Shown: positions 5,018 through 58,359 of the stretch, piece by piece
Layout of the letters: every line of letters begins with the position of its first letter
Position numbering within the stretch: position 1 is the first letter of the stretch
Virus record (IMG/VR): IMGVR_UViG_3300049846_002130
Location: 96,001 to 160,000 of that record
Length of the DNA stretch: 64,000 nucleotides
Source of the DNA: a virus
Reading direction: 5' to 3' (one strand)
The notes under the pieces: model-generated
Database searches by the model: none
What the model was told of the DNA's origin: nothing
What the model saw: only the letters and a program-made list of their open reading frames with translations
Position numbers and translations under genes: made by a program

Positions 5018-6107
5018 AATCTAATTTGTTAGCTGGTAGCAGCTGACCACAGTATACAAAGTTTGACCTATTAAAGTCAGTATTACCTTCTTTGTCTTGA
5101 TAAATAACAGCATAGCCATTAATTGAATTGCCATTAATTATTTCTCTTGGCTGCCATGCGTAAGACATATAGTCTGCCATACAACCTTGTTCGATTAGTA
5201 AAAGAGAGTAGGCTATATGTTTACTAACTTTATGAGTATGGCCGCATACGATGGAATCAAAACTTCCTCTAGGAAGTCTTTCTAGAAACTTCTTTGCCCA
5301 GACATCTACTGTGAATCCGGGTTTGGAGCTTCCACGGTTATGAGGATGAACAAAGAGTGTTTTGCCTATTTTAATCCACCAAGACTCATGTTCTTGATAG
5401 TGAACATTTTTAAAGTTTAGTTTTTCGACTAGTTGGCCTTGTCTATTAAGACGCTCACCATTTGCGATTCTAGCAATAAGATCTGTTTCAAAGACAGTGA
5501 GAGCAGCTTGATTTATAGGCGCTTTCTTTAATAAGGAAGAGGTTCTGACATCGTGGTTACCACTAATCAGTATAACCTTAGGAAAGGTTTTTGAACAGTG
5601 CTCTATAAAATCAAATGCAGCCATATATTCTTCTATCGCTGCAATATCTTTATCCTTTTCAAATCTTGATGCTGCATAGCCATCTAAGATATCTCCATTT
5701 AAAACAATGATATCTGCATCTGCATGCTCCTTTAAGGCATGTCTTAGATGATCTTCTCTTGCTAAGGGAAAGTGGATATCAGATAAAGAAAGTATTTTTC
5801 TGCTAGAGGAGTTAACTAAGCCAACATCTGAGAATGAACTTTTATCTCCATGACGTTCTCTAGCTTTTTTTAGCTTGTCCCATGGACTAGCTGAGTTGTT
5901 GGTTGGTAGCTTTTGTTCTTTTCGTTTGTCGATACGTCTTAGTTTTCTTTCAATAGCTTCTGGGCTTCGAAGACTAATATTTGGTTTAGGAGTTGTATTA
6001 AGCTTTTTTTGAAAATAGCTAGCAACTTCTAAATAGCTTAGCCCTTCAGCTATTAGCTCTAATAAGAGCTGCTCTTCTGTATCTGACCACTTATTGGGAT
6101 TCGTCAT
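4998..6107 (-). CDS. calcineurin-like metallophosphoesterase with N-terminal HTH
   Basis: DIH, GDILD, GNHD and GHTH motifs; N-terminal WSDTEEQLL...RSPEAIERK Myb/HTH-like segment. Confidence 0.85.
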   Translation of the reverse strand: MTNPNKWSDTEEQLLLELIAEGLSYLEVASYFQKKLNTTPKPNISLRSPEAIERKLRRIDKRKEQKLPTNNSASPWDKLKKARERHGDKSSFSDVGLVNSSSRKILSLSDIHFPLAREDHLRHALKEHADADIIVLNGDILDGYAASRFEKDKDIAAIEEYMAAFDFIEHCSKTFPKVILISGNHDVRTSSLLKKAPINQAALTVFETDLIARIANGERLNRQGQLVEKLNFKNVHYQEHESWWIKIGKTLFVHPHNRGSSKPGFTVDVWAKKFLERLPRGSFDSIVCGHTHKVSKHIAYSLLLIEQGCMADYMSYAWQPREIINGNSINGYAVIYQDKEGNTDFNRSNFVYCGQLLPANKLDFEVEND

Positions 6108-8538
6108 TAAAATCTCCGTATAGGGAGTATACCTTAAATACTTTAACTTGTTTTGCTATTGGATTGTCATCTTCATCATAGACTTCCTCTGCAGTAGCTA
6201 GGACTCTTGCACTAACAACTTTATATTTATAGTTATCAGCAGTTTTATTGTTGTTGGTTATTGGAAGCTCTGTATTGTCGGTACCATCTGTAATATTTAA
6301 ATAATGCCTAAAGGATCCATCTTTATTCTTATATGTTTTTGTTTTGTCAACAACTCCACAAACTTCATAAGTACCCTTTTCACTAATTTCTTCTAAAGGT
6401 GTGGTATCGGGATACATCAGTCTTGCTGGGTTGTTAATAAAGCATCCGATTATAGCTCCCTGATCAAGCATTTCTTGAAAGCTAATAGTTAGCTTTTTGC
6501 TTCTTATTAGTTCGGGTAAGGTAGGAAGCTCAGGAACAACTAGTGGTTTTTTCTCTCTAATGCCTTTGTAGGTTTCTAGAAAAGATTGTTCTTCATCTGT
6601 AAGATCTCTAGTTTTTGAAAGTTTTTTAAGTCTTTCTAGTTCTAGTTTGATTTCTATTATACTTTTATTTTCTTTTTCTCGTTGTTCATTTTCAACAAGA
6701 CGCTCTTCAATGATCTTTTGGGTTTCTAGATAAAGTTGCAAACTATCGATTGAATCGAGTATTTGTTGTCTTTTATAACCCATTGAATCAAATGTACCAG
6801 CTATAGTTAAACATTCAAGTATCTTTTTGTTTACCTTGGTTTTTGAGATAAACTCCAAAATATCTTTGAACTTATCTTTTCTTTTATTTAATATTTTTGT
6901 AGCTGCTGTAAAGCCTAGACCCTTAATAGCAGTCAGTCCAAAGTAAATACCATTTCCAGCAATCTCAAAGTCAATGCCTGATCTATTGATGTCTGGTGGC
7001 AAGATTCCGACGTTCATTGCTTCAGCTTCTAAAATTATTTTAGAAACCTTGGCACTCCATTTCTTTGCATCACTTGTAGTTTTGCTGCGGACAGACATAA
7101 GGGCAGCAAAGAACTCTATTAAGTAATAGGTCTTTAACCATGCACACTGGTAAGTAATTAGTGCATAAGAGATCGCATGCGACTTATTAAATGCATACTC
7201 AGCATAGCCAAGGATAATATCGTCCCAATAGTGGATAGCATATGCTTCTGTAATCCCAGCTTTTATAAAGCCTTGTATAAATTGGTCTCTGTATGGCTTA
7301 AGGTATTTGACATTTTTCTTTCCCATAGCCCTGCGCACATCGTCAGCTTCTTTTAAACTAAAGCCAGCAATGTTAGACATGATTTGCATCATCTGTTCTT
7401 GGTAACAAAGAACATAATGTGTGTTTTCTAATACGGTAGCTATTTGATCTGGCAATCCAGAAGGTCGACCCTTATATTTGTTTTCTTGATATTGCTCTAC
7501 GAAGCCAGCTTCAAGTGGACCTGGACGGATTAATGCACTCAGGTCTGCAAGCTCTGATAGGTTTTTTGGCTGTAGCTTTTGAACCGATTGTTTCATCAGT
7601 TCACTTGTTTCCATTTGAAAGATTCCAGCTAGTTTGCCACTATTAATTAGTTCATAAACTTTAGGGTCATCTTCTGGCAAAGAGTCTGGGTCTATAGCTA
7701 TACCATGACGCTGTTTAACTAATTTACATGTCTCTTTAATTATAGATAGGTTTTCTATTTTTAAAAAGTCATACTTAATCAAACCCAAGCTAGCTATCTC
7801 ATTCATATCAAACTGAGTGATCCAGCGATCTGTCTCAACTTTTGTATCTGGATCTTTCATCTTTCGAAACCATAATGGAACAACATTACTTACTGGGTTT
7901 TCGCTGATAACGATGCCAGATGCGTGAGAACTATATGACTTAATCATATTCTCTAACTTTTGAGCTACATTATACCAAGGTCTGTACTTGCCTTCCTTTA
8001 ATTCTGGGTGCGCTATATAACCTTTTTTAGAACTTCCATTAATTGTTTCCTCAAGGGTTGCCTCTTTGCCGAAGAGTGTCTTGGGAATCTTTTCAAGGAT
8101 TTCTGATTGAATCTTCATATGCTCTTTAAATTCTCTAGACTCTCTATCTTTGGGTGCGGTGGCCATAAAATATGAGCGTACAGTTGATTTTGGTTTAAAC
8201 TTTTGAAGAGCAATAATGTTAGCTATGTTTTCTCTGCCCCAGTAATCTATAAGCCAGTCAACTATACGCTGGTAATTAAGTGGGTCAAAGTCTACGTCAA
8301 TATCTGGAGCTGCTCCATCAATAGTATCTGCCCTATTTTTTTCAAAACAAAATTCATTTGTTTTGCCAGTAATATATAGTAATATAGAGTTATGAGGATT
8401 TGGTACAGAACTTGGCTTGAGAGCTAAGATTAGTTTAATATCATCTTCAGATATTAGTTCTTCTTCAAATTCAAGGAAGTCTGGATCTACTTCTGCAAGC
8501 CTTGAATCTATATAAAGCTTTTTTAGATTTTCTATCAT
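6091..8538 (-). CDS. dnaE: DNA polymerase III alpha subunit, C-terminal part (palm, fingers, HhH, OB)
   Basis: PDIDVDF, HASGIVIS, GLIKYDFL, GIFQME, RPGPL, YQEQMM, YAFNKSHA, PPDINRS. AAGGA SD before the ATG. Confidence 0.93.
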   Translation of the reverse strand: MIENLKKLYIDSRLAEVDPDFLEFEEELISEDDIKLILALKPSSVPNPHNSILLYITGKTNEFCFEKNRADTIDGAAPDIDVDFDPLNYQRIVDWLIDYWGRENIANIIALQKFKPKSTVRSYFMATAPKDRESREFKEHMKIQSEILEKIPKTLFGKEATLEETINGSSKKGYIAHPELKEGKYRPWYNVAQKLENMIKSYSSHASGIVISENPVSNVVPLWFRKMKDPDTKVETDRWITQFDMNEIASLGLIKYDFLKIENLSIIKETCKLVKQRHGIAIDPDSLPEDDPKVYELINSGKLAGIFQMETSELMKQSVQKLQPKNLSELADLSALIRPGPLEAGFVEQYQENKYKGRPSGLPDQIATVLENTHYVLCYQEQMMQIMSNIAGFSLKEADDVRRAMGKKNVKYLKPYRDQFIQGFIKAGITEAYAIHYWDDIILGYAEYAFNKSHAISYALITYQCAWLKTYYLIEFFAALMSVRSKTTSDAKKWSAKVSKIILEAEAMNVGILPPDINRSGIDFEIAGNGIYFGLTAIKGLGFTAATKILNKRKDKFKDILEFISKTKVNKKILECLTIAGTFDSMGYKRQQILDSIDSLQLYLETQKIIEERLVENEQREKENKSIIEIKLELERLKKLSKTRDLTDEEQSFLETYKGIREKKPLVVPELPTLPELIRSKKLTISFQEMLDQGAIIGCFINNPARLMYPDTTPLEEISEKGTYEVCGVVDKTKTYKNKDGSFRHYLNITDGTDNTELPITNNNKTADNYKYKVVSARVLATAEEVYDEDDNPIAKQVKVFKVYSLYGDFNDESQ

Positions 8539-8558
8539 ATTGTTCCTTGGAGTAAATA

Positions 8559-8966
8559 ATGGCCATTAGTTACAAGAAGTCTAGCAAGAATGTTCCTCGG
8601 GGACAAAGAGTTGCTCATGTTACAAATATTGGTGCTAGTGACTCAGTAGACATTGTTGAGATTTTAGGGTTTCCAGCTAGGGTCGTAAAAATAGTTACGC
8701 CTGATTCTGGAGATATTTTAGAAATAAAGATTAACAATCGCTATACTTTAGCAGATGTTTATAACATGCCAGCTCATGGAGAACATGGTAGTGTAGATCC
8801 CAGGTCAGCAGTTAGAGTTGTGTCTGAGGGGGCGCAGCATCCAACACATACGCTTACAGGCTCTACTGTGTATTACTCAGAGGATGGATTAGAGATTGCT
8901 TGGCTAGAGCTATCAGATATGACTCCCGCTACAGCGACAGATGTTATTGAGTTAATGGCCTGGTAA
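8559..8966 (+). CDS. hypothetical protein, possibly virion-associated
   Basis: Plus-strand ORF with GGAG SD; beta-rich; no recognised motif. Confidence 0.65.
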   Translation: MAISYKKSSKNVPRGQRVAHVTNIGASDSVDIVEILGFPARVVKIVTPDSGDILEIKINNRYTLADVYNMPAHGEHGSVDPRSAVRVVSEGAQHPTHTLTGSTVYYSEDGLEIAWLELSDMTPATATDVIELMAW

Positions 8967-8970
8967 TGCT

Positions 8971-9534
8971 ATGAACACTGGGCTTAGATGGTTTTCAAAA
9001 GCACTTTTTTCATATAAAGGTTGTGTTAATATTTGGAAGCCTGGTCTATTCTTTTATATAGTAATTTCTTTAGCTATATTACTTTTGGAGCGGAATACTG
9101 TTTACATTGGTGATGTAATCCGAAACAGACAGATTGATCACATACAAACTGTTGCTGTTCTGGATACTGTTTTAGAAGTACCCACAAGAGAGGCAATCGA
9201 GTGGACCTCTGAGCGAGGTTGCTACTTTAAATACGTTGATGATCCTAATATAGCTGAGATCTTTATTCGGCTAGAGGATGAAATTAACTGTGGTGGACTT
9301 TACTCAGCTGGATGCGCTTCTGTTGGTAAAGCAATTAAGGAAATTAGAGTTACAATGCCAGAAGAAATTATTCTTGCTCATGAATTACTTCATGAGCATA
9401 ATCTGACTCATCCTCTAAACCCGCCTAATAAACATATATTAAGTCCTACTTTTGAACATCTAAGCTACAATGATCGTGGAGTTCGGCAGGCGTGTGCTCG
9501 GACTCGAGCCTATCCAATTCCTGTTGCGCAATAG
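8971..9534 (+). CDS. zincin/matrixin-like metallopeptidase with N-terminal hydrophobic anchor
   Basis: [11 protein letters not shown] (HExxHxxxxxH) and a hydrophobic stretch at residues 23-39. Confidence 0.65.
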
Positions 9535-10726
9535 CTTTTGTTGCTTGATCAAAAATTAACGGTAGTGCAGCTCGACCAGGATTAAGCATTCGTTCAAACA
9601 GTAGGTTATATTTAATAGGATCTACTTTTGTAATACCTAAGGCATAGGCAACTAGAGAACCTCCAGCACTGCCACGACCAGGACCGATTGCTATGTCTAG
9701 CTCACGGGCCTTATTAACGTACTGAGCAACAATTAAAAAGTAATCGCTAAAGCCTAGTTTCTTAATAACACCAAGTTCATAAAATAATCTTTCAGTATAA
9801 ACAAATGGCATGGTTGTAAATCTTTTTTGAAGACCACTAATTGCTTCTGCTTCAAGCACTTGCCATGAATGTATACCTGGTGGGCATTCTTTATATTTGG
9901 TGAACCGATTCTTTCTATCAGAGAAATAATCGTTGGTTACCATGTTGGCAATATGTGTAGTATTAGTGAGCGCTTCTAAGGGTACGCTTGCTTGCTTAGC
10001 TAAGTCTTGCATCTCTTGTGGCGAACCAAGAAATACTTCTATGTCTCCAAATGAGAAGCCATCACCAGAACCTTCAGTTGCCATTTTAAGTGTAGTCTCG
10101 TGAAATTGTTTATCATGCTTATGTGTGTAGTGGGCATCAGCTGTCATAATAATTGGCAAGCTATTTCTATTTGCTAGCTCAATAAGAATGCTGTTGACAA
10201 CTTGCTGGTCTCCAGCATGAGCTTGTAGCTCTACGAAGAATCTATCTTTATAGATATCAGCATGCTCTAGCAATTGTTTTTCTGCTTGTTTATAGTCACC
10301 TCTTAAAATTAATTGAGAGAATAGCGATCCTAAACATGCAGTAGTGGCAGCAATACCTTCTGAATAGTCAGCCATAATCTGTTTTGCAATTCTTGGCTTA
10401 TAGTAAAGATTCTCTGTGTATGCTCGAGAGCTTAGTGTCCATAAGTTATGAAGACCTTTATTATTTAGAGCCAGCATGACCATATGATAGTAAGCTCGTT
10501 CTCGCTCATCGGGTTCGCGCACACCATTCGGTAGAACTGATATATATGCTTCTAAACCAAGGATAGGTTTAATACCAACCTTATTACAGTTCTGCCAGAA
10601 TTGGTAATGGCCGACACAATTACCGTGATCGGTTAAAGCGCAGCTGGACATTCCCTTATTTTTAATATGTTGAGGAGTGCTGTCTAGACGATTTACCCCA
10701 TCTAGTGTTGATGCTTCAAACTTCAA
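9446..10726 (-). CDS. dnaE: DNA polymerase III alpha subunit, N-terminal part (PHP domain to GRGS motif); true 5' end is anomalous
   Basis: [49 protein letters not shown]. Confidence 0.92.
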
Positions 10727-10788
10727 GAGTGTACATGAAGGTGAACAAATCCACCTTTAGTACACTCTTGCCCTCCTTTATCATTCAT
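10723..10788 (-). CDS. 21-aa mini-[24 protein letters not shown] carrying the first PHP motif of DnaE
   Basis: ATG overlaps the upstream stop; ends [11 protein letters not shown], out of frame with 9446..10726. Confidence 0.6.
10724..10770. promoter_or_regulatory. 47-nt hairpin over the dnaE-N start region
   Basis: caagagtgtac (10724-34) pairs with gtacactcttg (10760-70); aaggtg pairs with cacctt inside. Confidence 0.8.
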
Positions 10789-10972
10789 GACAATTACATC
10801 CTGGGTTACACTGACAGACATCCTCTTCTGCTAATATTTCTTTCTCACACTTATAGCAATATTCGAGATGATCAATAAGTTCTCTAATAAAGTTTAATCT
10901 TTCTAGTGTAGTAGATTCTTGATTACAACTATCTATTAGTTGCCATATCTCTATTTCAAGTTCAGGAGTCAT
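10781..10972 (-). CDS. hypothetical protein with Cys-rich C-terminus
   Basis: ORF ending [11 protein letters not shown]. Confidence 0.6.
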   Translation of the reverse strand: MTPELEIEIWQLIDSCNQESTTLERLNFIRELIDHLEYCYKCEKEILAEEDVCQCNPGCNCHE

Positions 10973-11237
10973 TGCTTACCTCCATGGTTTGATAAGCAAG
11001 GTAGCCAGAATGGTTATTTGTTGGTATACCTATTATCTTTGCGGTAGAATTTGGATTTTGAACTTCGAATATATTGCAAAATGTATTATCTAGTATCTTT
11101 TGTGTCTGCCATTTATTATTTGGTGGATCGTCTAGAGTAGCGACTTTATCATATGCTTCAGAAGTGCTATTGGCCTCTATGTAAACAATAGTTTCTTGCA
11201 TAACTCTTCTATATAAAAAAGCTTTATATGTCTTCAC
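10962..11237 (-). CDS. hypothetical protein
   Basis: Coupled ORF. Confidence 0.6.
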   Translation of the reverse strand: MKTYKAFLYRRVMQETIVYIEANSTSEAYDKVATLDDPPNNKWQTQKILDNTFCNIFEVQNPNSTAKIIGIPTNNHSGYLAYQTMEVSNDS

Positions 11238-58156: not shown

Positions 58157-58173
58157 TATTTCTCCAATAAAAG

Positions 58174-58263
58174 CGGAAGGCTGAGGACTCGAACCCCATA
58201 CGGCTTTACCCGTACCCAAGCTTTCAAGGCTTGTCGCCGCCCATCGCAGCTGCTTAACCTTCC
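58174..58263 (-). tRNA. tRNA-Ser(UGA), long D arm, can fold 8/4
   Basis: GGAAGGT(T)/(A)GCCTTCC acceptor; CAAGC-CTTGAAA-GCTTG; long V arm; G73. Confidence 0.85.
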
Positions 58264-58268
58264 AATAT

Positions 58269-58354
58269 TAGACCTAATAGGACTCGAACCCCCGGAAGTT
58301 ATTAACTTCAGTGCTTTTCAAGAGCACCATCTTAAACCACTTGATCACAATCCC
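58269..58354 (-). pseudogene. tRNA-Ser(UGA)-like element with mismatched acceptor
   Basis: Intact D, anticodon (GTGCT-CTTGAAA-AGCAC) and V arms; acceptor GGGATTG versus TAGGTCT. Confidence 0.75.
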
Positions 58355-58359
58355 AGTTA

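What the first reader, a model, noticed from the sequence alone, without database searches (positions are those of the whole stretch)
10715..10788. Essential-looking PHP motif is out of frame: 8 extra nucleotides inside a 47-nt hairpin (possible recoding)
The minus strand reads ATG...TTT GTT CAC CTT CAT GTA CAC TCT [TGAAGTTT] GAA GCA TCA ACA CTA GAT GGG. Removing the 8 nt gives [15 protein letters not shown], which matches the canonical DnaE start (HLHVHSEYSLLDG) residue for residue. The motif and most of the stop codon lie in the 3' arm of an 11+6-bp hairpin. A strong AAGGAGG precedes a GTG-TAC-TAA mini-ORF in the 5' arm. Options: translational bypass (UCU take-off, stop, UUU landing; T4 gene 60 is the precedent), a -1 shift adding LKF, regulated TTG initiation of a PHP-truncated form, or an assembly artefact.
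Basis: partly seen in the sequence, partly recalled or inferred. Interest (0 to 1): 0.75.

Follow-up and report, generated by a model that had tools for sequence, protein, structure and literature searches.

The report
Ribosome-hop gap in phage dnaE
The DNA polymerase gene of this uncultured 183-kb freshwater phage is broken after 21 codons by 8 real bases that begin with a stop codon, and ribosomes most likely hop over them, helped by an RNA hairpin just behind; this way of reading a gene is very rare and has not been tested at the bench here.

Summary
On the minus strand, a 21-codon frame ends with FVHLHVHS and TGA. Eight bases later the main dnaE frame resumes with EASTLDG. A 47-nt hairpin (10770-10724) ends at the stop codon.

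It is not an artefact. Contigs from three DNA runs in two studies carry the stretch without change. Seven other phage contigs, in five further lineages at 32-75% protein identity, show the same layout: a strong hairpin, the last sense codon, a stop, then a gap of 6, 8, 9 or 10 nt. The hairpin stems covary. None of 63 uninterrupted homologues has such a hairpin.

In every lineage, the codon just before translation resumes can still pair with the tRNA of the last sense codon through Watson-Crick or G.U pairs. In the window this is UCU to UUU. A 10-nt gap whose +1 frame is blocked by a second stop, and in-frame gaps of 6 and 9 nt, rule out simple frameshifting as the shared mechanism.

Best reading, about 65%: a programmed short translational bypass ("stop-hop"), driven by refolding of the hairpin on the exit side of the ribosome. 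That would make it a short-range, non-homologous counterpart of the T4 gene 60 bypass.

I found no paper describing this. Earlier AI notes from this scan report the same kind of dnaE gap in at least eight other phage genomes. There is no RNA or protein evidence.

The parts
10726..10788 (-). ORF1. 21 codons, [21 protein letters not shown], carrying PHP motif I (HxHxH). Its ATG overlaps the end of the upstream 63-aa ORF (ATGAATGA).
10724..10770 (-). 47-nt RNA hairpin. Outer stem 11 bp (10770-10760 with 10734-10724); inner stem 8 bp (10757-10750 with 10745-10738); 4-nt loop. The 3' arm covers the codons for V-H-S and the first two bases of the stop. [quoted passage not shown]
   Evidence: z = -4.4. 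Covariation in relatives. Absent from 63 continuous homologues.
10726..10728 (-). Proposed take-off codon TCT (Ser), the last sense codon of ORF1.
10723..10725 (-). Stop codon TGA of ORF1, placed in the A site at take-off. It overlaps TTG 10726-10724, the start the gene caller used for ORF2.
10718..10725 (-). The 8 untranslated bases (TGAAGTTT): the stop, then AG, then the landing codon.
   Evidence: The gap is poorly conserved among relatives (1-4 of 8 identical) against 58-78% in the flanks.
10718..10720 (-). Proposed landing codon TTT. It pairs with a tRNA-Ser anticodon (NGA) through U-A, U.G and a wobble position.
9446..10717 (-). ORF2, the N-terminal gene of the split DnaE. It resumes at GAA (10717-10715) with [10 protein letters not shown]. 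It holds the rest of the PHP domain and the first 102 positions of the palm domain, and ends at the stop at 9446.
   Evidence: PHP 1.2e-38; DNA_pol3_alpha 3.4e-34.
10757..10778 (-). AAGGAGG (10778-10772) plus the mini-ORF GTG TAC TAA (10765-10757) in the -1 frame, inside the 5' arm. Its role is unknown. L057 has the counterpart ATG CAC TGA; in L058 the GTG lies in frame 0.
6091..8538 (-). C-terminal gene of the split DnaE: palm positions 101-259, fingers and HhH. Context for the finding.
8559..9534 (+). Two antisense ORFs (135 and 187 aa) between the two dnaE genes. No Pfam or PHROG family matches. Context for the finding.

Best explanation
This is a programmed short translational bypass, a "stop-hop", at the start of the phage's dnaE gene.

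Proposed sequence of events:
1. Ribosomes start at ATG 10788 and make [21 protein letters not shown].
2. They pause with peptidyl-tRNA-Ser on UCU in the P site and UGA in the A site.
3. The tRNA lets go of UCU. The mRNA moves 8 nt through the ribosome. The tRNA re-pairs with UUU (10720-10718).
4. Decoding resumes at GAA. One protein results, reading ...HVHS-EASTLDG..., with the canonical spacing of PHP motif I.

The 47-nt hairpin is the proposed stimulator. When the ribosome sits on the take-off codon, the inner stem-loop has nearly left the ribosome and the outer 3' arm is still inside. Zipping up of the outer stem on the exit side would pull mRNA forward by about the length of the hop.

What is shown:
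- the two frames, the stop and the hairpin;
- their conservation and covariation;
- that the hairpin occurs only in gapped genes;
- that the landing codon can pair with the take-off tRNA.

What is inferred:
- that a hop happens at all, and how efficient it is;
- the driver role of the hairpin;
- any regulatory purpose. One possibility is a cheap gate that sets the amount of DnaE. Another is protection of a nuclease target site.
For: **1. The layout recurs in relatives.** Seven other contigs, in five further lineages, have it:
- L057 and L058, 75% identical to the window: 8-nt gaps TGAGGACC and TAGTGATC.
- L059, L060 and L061: 8 nt.
- L062: 10 nt.
- L069: 9 nt, in frame.
- L164: 6 nt, in frame, CTT TGA CTT.
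- L197: 9 nt, in frame.

**2. The cut-off motif stays intact.** The out-of-frame or stop-separated ORF1 always keeps the HxHxH motif. A profile built from 106 continuous N-termini scores the hop product 6-8 bits above the frameshift or readthrough product in all eight sequences tested. It scores about 20 bits above ORF2 alone (L061 and L197 were not scored).

**3. The hairpin goes with the gap.**
- In every gapped sequence the 66 nt before the stop fold at -20.5 to -29.7 kcal/mol, apart from L164 (about -15 with its stop codon included). The 3' arm ends 0-4 nt before the stop.
- The 63 distinct continuous homologues average -8.7 (sd 3.9), and none has such a hairpin.

**4. The stem covaries.** Pairs in the 8-nt class switch A-T/T-A, G-C/A-T, T-A/C-G and C-G/G-C, and none is broken.

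**5. The landing codons can still pair.**
- Take-off to landing pairs are UCU>UUU, ACU>ACC, ACU>AUC, ACU>GCA, UCC>UCU, CAU>UGC, CUU>CUU and UCC>UUU.
- Positions 1 and 2 are always identical, or changed so that the pair becomes G.U.
- By my own arithmetic, the chance for six independent lineages is about 1.5e-5 with equal base frequencies.

**6. Simple frameshifting fails in some relatives.**
- In L062 the +1 frame is closed by a second TAG inside the gap.
- L069, L164 and L197 are in frame.

**7. The gap drifts.** The 8 nt are 1-4 of 8 identical between relatives, against 58-78% in the flanks.

**8. The gapped lineages are scattered.** In the DnaE-N tree, continuous sisters sit beside them. 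Well-supported branches require at least 4 gains or losses.

**9. The literature supports a forward push.**
- Pairing of mRNA leaving the ribosome is proposed to drive forward bypass in gene 60. [quoted passage not shown] The window's inner stem has the same spacing.
- Refolding upstream hairpins attenuate -1 and stimulate +1 shifting on 70S ribosomes (PMC6321510).

**10. The sequence is real.** Contigs of three DNA runs carry it unchanged.
Against: - There is no RNA, ribosome-profiling or protein evidence.
- Take-off and landing codons are not identical in the window (UCU and UUU). Re-pairing needs a G.U pair at the middle position and a weak third position.
- ORF1 is short: 21 codons here and 12 in L059. 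A gene 60-type nascent-peptide signal therefore cannot operate, and nothing known would hold the peptidyl-tRNA in place.
- The window has no clear stem-loop beginning at the stop codon, unlike gene 60, L059 and L197.
- In the 8-nt lineages a TTG or GTG start overlaps the stop, so termination-reinitiation is possible by sequence.
- The strong AAGGAGG-GTG mini-ORF in the 5' arm is unexplained.
- The landing-codon statistic rests on few lineages and a simple null model.
Confidence: 0.65

Rival explanations
1. Termination-reinitiation gives two polypeptides. Ribosomes end ORF1 at TGA and restart at the overlapping TTG (10726). This yields a 21-aa peptide and a DnaE-N without the HxHxH strand. That strand is then either dispensable or supplied in trans by the peptide.
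For: - The stop and a possible start overlap in the 8-nt lineages: TTGA in the window, L057 and L059, and TAGTG in L058.
- Gene callers took these starts.
- This phage clade already builds DnaE from separate genes.
Against: - L062, L069 and L164 have no start codon at or near the gap.
- This model does not need gap lengths that restore canonical spacing. It does not need landing codons that can pair, or a hairpin ending at the last sense codon.
- A 12-21 aa peptide supplying one strand and two metal ligands in trans has no precedent that I know of.
Confidence: 0.12
2. A -1 (or +2) ribosomal frameshift at TCT-TGA gives [14 protein letters not shown] (or HVHS-KF-EAS), a product with two or three extra residues.
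For: - The downstream frame is the -1 frame and is open across the site.
- A stop in the A site is a known pause.
- In the window, tRNA-Ser could also pair at +2 with UUG.
Against: - There is no X XXY YYZ slippery site, and the -1 codon (CUC) cannot pair.
- +2 pairing fails in L057, where the tRNA-Thr would have to pair with UUG.
- An upstream refolding hairpin attenuates -1 shifting (PMC6321510).
- The would-be inserted residues (LKF, LRT, LVI, LNA) are not conserved.
- The product scores 6-8 bits lower against the family profile.
- It cannot explain the 10-nt gap with a blocked +1 frame, or the in-frame gaps.
Confidence: 0.08
3. The 8 nt are removed from the RNA by an unknown cleavage-ligation or editing step that uses the hairpin as a handle. 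Translation is then ordinary.
For: - The hairpin abuts the gap.
- These phages carry many other intervening elements. L058 has a 1.1-kb LAGLIDADG-bearing insert, and a relative has Hint/intein hits.
Against: - No known mechanism removes 6-10 nt in bacteria or phages.
- No Rfam family matches.
- The ability of landing codons to pair with the take-off tRNA would be unexplained.
Confidence: 0.05
4. The gene start is damaged, or this is a sequencing or assembly error. Any DnaE made lacks motif I by accident.
For: There is a single metagenomic record and no isolate.
Against: - The sequence is identical in contigs from two studies.
- The same architecture is kept across lineages at 32-75% identity, with covarying stems and an intact upstream motif.
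Confidence: 0.02

Closest known systems
Phage T4 gene 60 translational bypass (50-nt gap; MobA cassette)
   Same: - One protein is read from two frames.
- The take-off codon is directly followed by a stop.
- The peptidyl-tRNA re-pairs at a downstream codon.
- An mRNA stem-loop on the 5' side sits about 9 nt before the take-off codon and is proposed to push the ribosome forward.
- The host gene is a phage replication gene that is also split into pieces.
   Different: - No sequence or gene homology: this is dnaE, not the topoisomerase gene.
- The gap is 8 nt (6-10 in relatives), against 50 nt (20 in one clade).
- The codons are near-cognate rather than identical in the window.
- The 12-35 codon ORF1 leaves no room for the KKYK-type nascent-peptide signal.
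- The window has no clear stem-loop at the stop.
- The hairpin is much stronger and its 3' arm includes the take-off codon.
- No recognisable homing endonuclease lies next to the window's site.
Synthetic "stop-hops" in E. coli (Weiss, Dunn, Atkins and Gesteland 1987, as cited in PMC5009743)
   Same: A short hop over a stop codon between codons read by the same tRNA. L164 (CTT TGA CTT) has exactly this form.
   Different: - Those hops were low-level events in constructs without stimulators.
- The 2016 review states that no natural in-frame stop-hop was known.
- Here the sites are natural, conserved, mostly out of frame, and coupled to a dedicated hairpin.
Streptomyces phage phiHau3 terminase bypass (PMC10732093)
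   Same: A phage gene in pieces that is read by bypass, confirmed there by a junction peptide.
   Different: That case depends on a rare UUA codon in the A site. It involves a different gene and host and has no abutting upstream hairpin.
Mitochondrial "byps" of Magnusiomyces capitatus (Lang et al. 2014, as cited in PMC10732093 and PMC5009743)
   Same: Many short non-coding inserts are skipped during translation.
   Different: Those inserts are 27-55 nt, lie in a yeast mitochondrion, are mobile-element-like and occur at many sites. Here a single site recurs in one gene motif.
Refolding upstream hairpins that stimulate +1 and attenuate -1 frameshifting (PMC3639245, PMC6321510)
   Same: A hairpin re-forms at the mRNA exit next to the shift site and biases the ribosome forward. 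This was also shown on 70S ribosomes.
   Different: Those were engineered constructs giving single-base shifts, not natural 6-10 nt hops.

Membership tests
Programmed translational bypassing (gene 60 type) | Two open frames that together encode one protein, separated by untranslated bases | tested here: met
   ORF1 ends HLHVHS and ORF2 begins EASTLDG. The joined product has canonical PHP motif I spacing and the best profile score.
Programmed translational bypassing (gene 60 type) | Take-off codon immediately followed by a stop codon | tested here: met
   TCT TGA in the window. A stop follows directly in all eight gapped relatives and lineage members examined.
Programmed translational bypassing (gene 60 type) | Landing codon matched to the take-off codon | tested here: inconclusive
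   - Window: UCU and UUU are not identical but can pair through G.U.
- The codon box (positions 1-2) is the same in L057 (ACU>ACC), L062 (UCC>UCU) and L164 (CUU>CUU).
- The other lineages are wobble-compatible.
Programmed translational bypassing (gene 60 type) | Nascent-peptide signal in the exit tunnel (KKYK...) | tested here: not met
   ORF1 has 21 codons (12 in L059). No such motif is conserved across lineages.
Programmed translational bypassing (gene 60 type) | Stem-loop that starts at the stop codon (A-site / take-off stem-loop) | tested here: not met
   The window's downstream 30 nt fold weakly (-2.5 kcal/mol), with nothing starting at the stop. L059 and L197 do have 7-bp hairpins starting at the stop.
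Programmed translational bypassing (gene 60 type) | 5' stem-loop upstream of the take-off site | tested here: met
   The 47-nt hairpin covaries and occurs only in gapped genes. [quoted passage not shown]
Programmed translational bypassing (gene 60 type) | Homology to the gene 60 / MobA cassette | tested here: not met
   The gene is different. The ORFs beside the site have no Pfam or PHROG nuclease family. Only the L059 lineage has an endonuclease-like gene upstream.
Programmed translational bypassing (gene 60 type) | A single fused polypeptide is made | not testable with these tools
   This needs mass spectrometry or a reporter assay.
-1 programmed ribosomal frameshifting | Slippery heptamer X XXY YYZ with a downstream stimulatory structure | tested here: not met
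   The site reads C ACT CTT GAA. There is no slippery run, the structure is upstream rather than downstream, and the downstream fold is weak.
prfB-type +1 frameshifting | CUU UGA C with an SD-like element 3 nt upstream, restoring the frame by +1 | tested here: not met
   The window needs +8 (equivalent to -1), not +1. L164 has CUU UGA C, but there a +1 shift would leave the LDG frame.
DNA polymerase III alpha (DnaE), PHP domain | Pfam PHP and DNA_pol3_alpha domains above the curated cut-offs | tested here: met
   PHP scores 133.5 bits against a cut-off of 26.4. The profile match starts at position 7, so the first strand is missing from ORF2. DNA_pol3_alpha scores 119 bits.

The most novel reading that the evidence does not exclude
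Phage dnaE genes have repeatedly and independently evolved a minimal bypass device: a hairpin on the exit side, a stop codon and a landing codon that can still pair. The length of stem that zips up would set the hop distance (6-10 nt), without any nascent-peptide signal. The device would act as a cheap gate on synthesis of the replicase, placed 12-35 codons into the gene. Its efficiency could depend on ribosome spacing, release-factor level, or the phage's own tRNAs; this genome carries two tRNA-Ser(UGA) genes that read the take-off codon. If this holds, short natural hops are a general and overlooked way of reading genes.
Probability: 0.3. Interest if true: 0.9.

Novelty: new variant of a known kind. 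Interest (0 to 1): 0.8.

Why it matters
**How rare the known cases are.** Programmed bypassing was long known mainly from T4 gene 60. It is now also known from gene 60 homologues, yeast mitochondria and one Streptomyces phage terminase. The 2016 recoding review expected shorter natural counterparts and stated that no natural in-frame stop-hop was known.

**What this site would add.**
- A natural series of minimal bypass sites with 6, 8, 9 and 10-nt gaps, both in frame and out of frame.
- A simple stimulator that can be mutated.
- A direct test of the idea that pairing of mRNA leaving the ribosome drives forward movement.

**Practical point for annotation.** Gene callers start these dnaE genes at TTG or GTG and drop a catalytic-site motif. 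Polymerases in this large group of uncultured phages are therefore systematically mis-annotated.

Tried and rejected
- **Fixed-pattern scans.** Scans for the 8-nt layout found nothing in IMG/VR or the JGI metagenome contigs. A scan for the clade-specific [11 protein letters not shown] coding pattern also found nothing. L059 is a JGI contig that fits the pattern but was not returned, so the collection is incomplete.
- **RNA evidence.** No RNA holder is listed for the stretch, so expression and RNA-level removal could not be examined.
- **Genome-wide scan.** A scan of the phage genome for "hairpin, then stop, then a long downstream frame" returned 75 hits. Most are out-of-frame stops inside ordinary genes, so it was too unspecific and I dropped it.
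- **Rfam.** No family matches around the site. None matches the L058 intron-like insert either.
- **Representative-library search.** This gave few new candidates. P0216 (L196) turned out continuous, a gene-caller start artefact. P0122 had no DNA available.
- **Nuclease cassette idea, from earlier scan notes.** The ORFs next to the window's site have no nuclease family, and the upstream genes of the window and L057 are unrelated. The idea is neither supported nor excluded for this window.
- **Expanded-anticodon tRNA as hopper.** All 11 phage tRNAs have 7-nt anticodon loops.
- **Alternative genetic code.** Rejected for the window. Reading TGA as a residue leaves frame 0 closed by TAG and TAA within nine codons.

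Full report
**The observation**

The window comes from a 183,528-bp virus record with direct terminal repeats, rated complete. All coordinates here are on the minus strand.

- ATG 10788 opens a 21-codon frame, [21 protein letters not shown]. It ends with TCT (10728-10726) and TGA (10725-10723).
- The large dnaE frame (9446..10726 by the ORF listing, TTG start) is the -1 frame and reads [13 protein letters not shown].
- Pfam places PHP (133 bits) and the first 102 positions of the palm domain in this 426-aa product. The PHP match starts at profile position 7, so the first strand is missing.
- Skipping the 8 nt at 10725-10718 joins HVHS to EASTLDG.
- The hairpin spans 10770-10724. The 111-nt stretch folds at -33 kcal/mol with z = -4.4.
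- Contigs from three DNA runs in two studies (a freshwater and a freshwater-sediment metagenome) carry 10500-11000 with no difference. One of these runs may be the source of the record.

**Relatives**

The gene belongs to a large family of roughly 430-aa "DnaE-N" genes in uncultured phages of about 100-200 kb. Nearly all start M...FVHLHVHTEYSLLDG in one frame. A few called proteins start just after the motif, so I fetched their DNA. The gaps found are:

| Locus | Relation to window | Take-off / stop and gap / landing / resume | Gap |
|---|---|---|---|
| L057 | 75% identity | ACT / TGA GG / ACC / GAG | 8 nt |
| L058 | 75% identity | ACT / TAG TG / ATC / GAT | 8 nt |
| L059, L060, L061 | about 50% identity | ACT / TGA AT / GCA / GAG | 8 nt |
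| L062 | 54% identity | TCC / TAG GTAG / TCT / ACA | 10 nt |
| L069 | 36% identity, IMG/VR | CAT / TAG GTT / TGC / TCA | 9 nt, in frame |
| L164 | 32% to P0035, IMG/VR | CTT / TGA / CTT / GAT | 6 nt, in frame |
| L197 | about 53% identity | TCC / TGA GTA / TTT / GAA | 9 nt, in frame |

In every case the short upstream frame still encodes the HxHxH motif. Removing the gap restores the canonical spacing to LDG.

A profile built from 106 continuous N-termini was scored against eight of the gapped sequences (L061 and L197 were not scored). In all eight, the hop product scores 6-8 bits above the minimal frameshift or readthrough product. It scores about 20 bits above ORF2 alone.

In a quick maximum-likelihood tree the gapped lineages are scattered among continuous sisters: P0004, P0063, P0069 and L116. 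Well-supported branches force at least four gains or losses.

**The hairpin belongs to the gap**

- In every gapped sequence the 66 nt before the stop fold at -20.5 to -29.7 kcal/mol. The exception is L164, at about -15 when its stop codon is included.
- The hairpin's 3' arm ends 0-4 nt before the stop.
- Among 63 distinct continuous homologues the same stretch averages -8.7 (sd 3.9), and none has a strong hairpin ending there.
- Within the 8-nt class the 3' arms align codon by codon. The 5' arms follow them: A-T/T-A, G-C/A-T, T-A/C-G and C-G/G-C exchanges, with no broken pair.
- The 3' arm encodes a conserved motif, so it is the poorly conserved N-terminal extension that has been shaped to pair with it.

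**Which mechanism**

A -1 shift would restore the frame in the 8-nt class, but several points count against it:
- There is no slippery site.
- The -1 codon cannot pair with the P-site tRNA.
- The three residues it would add (LKF, LRT, LVI, LNA) are not conserved.
- Upstream refolding hairpins are reported to attenuate -1 shifting and favour forward movement, also on 70S ribosomes (PMC6321510).
- In L062 the +1 frame is closed by a second TAG within the gap, so only a jump of 10 nt or more restores the protein.
- L069, L164 and L197 are in frame, so a frameshift would do harm there.

Reinitiation is possible by sequence where TTG or GTG overlaps the stop, as in the window, L057, L058 and L059. 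L062, L069 and L164 have no start codon nearby.

The one reading that fits all lineages is a hop of the peptidyl-tRNA.

The codon just before translation resumes supports this. The pairs are UCU>UUU, ACU>ACC, ACU>AUC, ACU>GCA, UCC>UCU, CAU>UGC, CUU>CUU and UCC>UUU. At positions 1 and 2 each landing codon is either identical to the take-off codon or changed so that a Watson-Crick pair becomes G.U. With equal base frequencies, and counting six lineages once each, I estimate the chance at about 1.5e-5. This is my own arithmetic with a simple null model. The position of the landing codon was fixed by the protein alignment, not chosen to fit.

The gap itself drifts. It is 1-4 of 8 identical between relatives, against 58-78% in the flanks.

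**How it may work (inference)**

With UCU in the P site, the outer 3' arm (10734-10724) lies inside the ribosome. [quoted passage not shown] That is the spacing given for the gene 60 5' stem-loop.

Wills, Parsawar and Atkins argue that pairing of mRNA as it exits drives unidirectional forward bypass (bioRxiv 10.1101/2024.12.09.627546). Here, zipping up of the 8-11 bp outer stem could pull about that many bases out of the ribosome. This is of the same order as the 6-10 nt hops.

The stop codon would provide the pause. ORF1 is too short for a gene 60-type nascent-peptide signal.

L059 and L197 have an additional 7-bp hairpin that starts at the stop codon, like the gene 60 A-site stem-loop. The window does not.

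In L059 and L197 the 5' arm contains the start codon. A following ribosome would therefore prevent the hairpin from forming. That would tie hop efficiency to initiation rate, which is speculation.

**Origin**

Some N-terminal extensions hold a decayed, ungapped second copy of the motif:
- L057 has MDFTHLHVYTEA upstream of FVHLHVHT.
- L062 has ...HTHTEVQEYSSG upstream of ...HTHDEYS.
- L069 has MSFVHHNS, compared with MSFIHLHTHS in its sister L116.

 This suggests that the device arose by local duplication or insertion. It recalls the gene 60 cassette, which brings its own copy of the flanking coding sequence.

A recognisable endonuclease gene lies directly upstream only in the L059 lineage. The window's neighbouring ORFs have no family.

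**What is known**

I found no paper describing a bypass in dnaE. The 2016 review says that shorter counterparts of gene 60 were long expected and that no natural in-frame stop-hop was known.

Earlier AI notes from this scan report "ribosome-hop gaps in phage dnaE" in at least eight other genomes. They give gaps of 2-68 nt, often beside nuclease genes. These notes agree with my reading, but they are not independent evidence. I tested only what is cited here.

**Verdict**

This is a real, conserved recoding site. It is most likely a hairpin-assisted 8-nt translational hop (about 65%). That makes it a new variant of programmed bypassing rather than a member of the gene 60 family. It remains unproven without protein or RNA data.

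Noticed in passing
window 58173-58263 and 58268-58355 (minus strand); also genome-wide: The phage carries 11 tRNA genes. These include two adjacent tRNA-Ser(UGA) genes, which read the take-off codon UCU, and also tRNA-Ser(GCU), tRNA-Thr(UGU) and tRNA-Phe(GAA). All have ordinary 7-nt anticodon loops. Whether one of them is the hopping tRNA is open.
   Followed up: partly
window 10757-10778 (minus strand): A strong AAGGAGG at ideal spacing from a two-codon mini-ORF (GTG TAC TAA), in the -1 frame and inside the 5' arm of the hairpin. L057 has ATG CAC TGA at the same place. In L058 the GTG is in frame 0 and could be the real ORF1 start. The role is unexplained.
   Followed up: partly
L057:2902-3003, L062:1375-1478, L069:1350-1480: The N-terminal extensions upstream of the hairpin contain a decayed, ungapped second copy of PHP motif I, for example MDFTHLHVYTEA in L057. 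This points to an origin by local duplication or cassette insertion.
   Followed up: partly
L058:2785-3875: A relative at 75% identity has an extra insert of about 1.1 kb after ITDHG. It holds a 277-aa ORF with a faint LAGLIDADG hit, and the exons resume at NCVGHYEFW. It looks like an intron, but no Rfam group I match was found.
   Followed up: partly
window 6091-10726: DnaE is split before the catalytic PDxDxD motif into two genes. Two antisense ORFs of no known family (8559-8966 and 8971-9534) lie between them. The split is shared by the whole family of roughly 430-aa N-terminal genes. In L057 the C-terminal part is split again, into 456 and 329 aa.
   Followed up: no
L164:535-552: The 6-nt case reads CTT TGA C, the same heptamer as the prfB +1 frameshift site. 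Here, however, only a +6 hop to the second CTT keeps the LDG frame.
   Followed up: partly
L059:560-577 and L197:281-298: A second 7-bp hairpin starts exactly at the stop codon and encloses the landing codon, like the gene 60 A-site stem-loop. It is absent or weak in the window and the other lineages.
   Followed up: partly
relatives of P0122: Another DnaE-N relative has Hint/intein hits on record. This polymerase family therefore collects inteins, an intron-like insert, intein-free splits and hop gaps.
   Followed up: no
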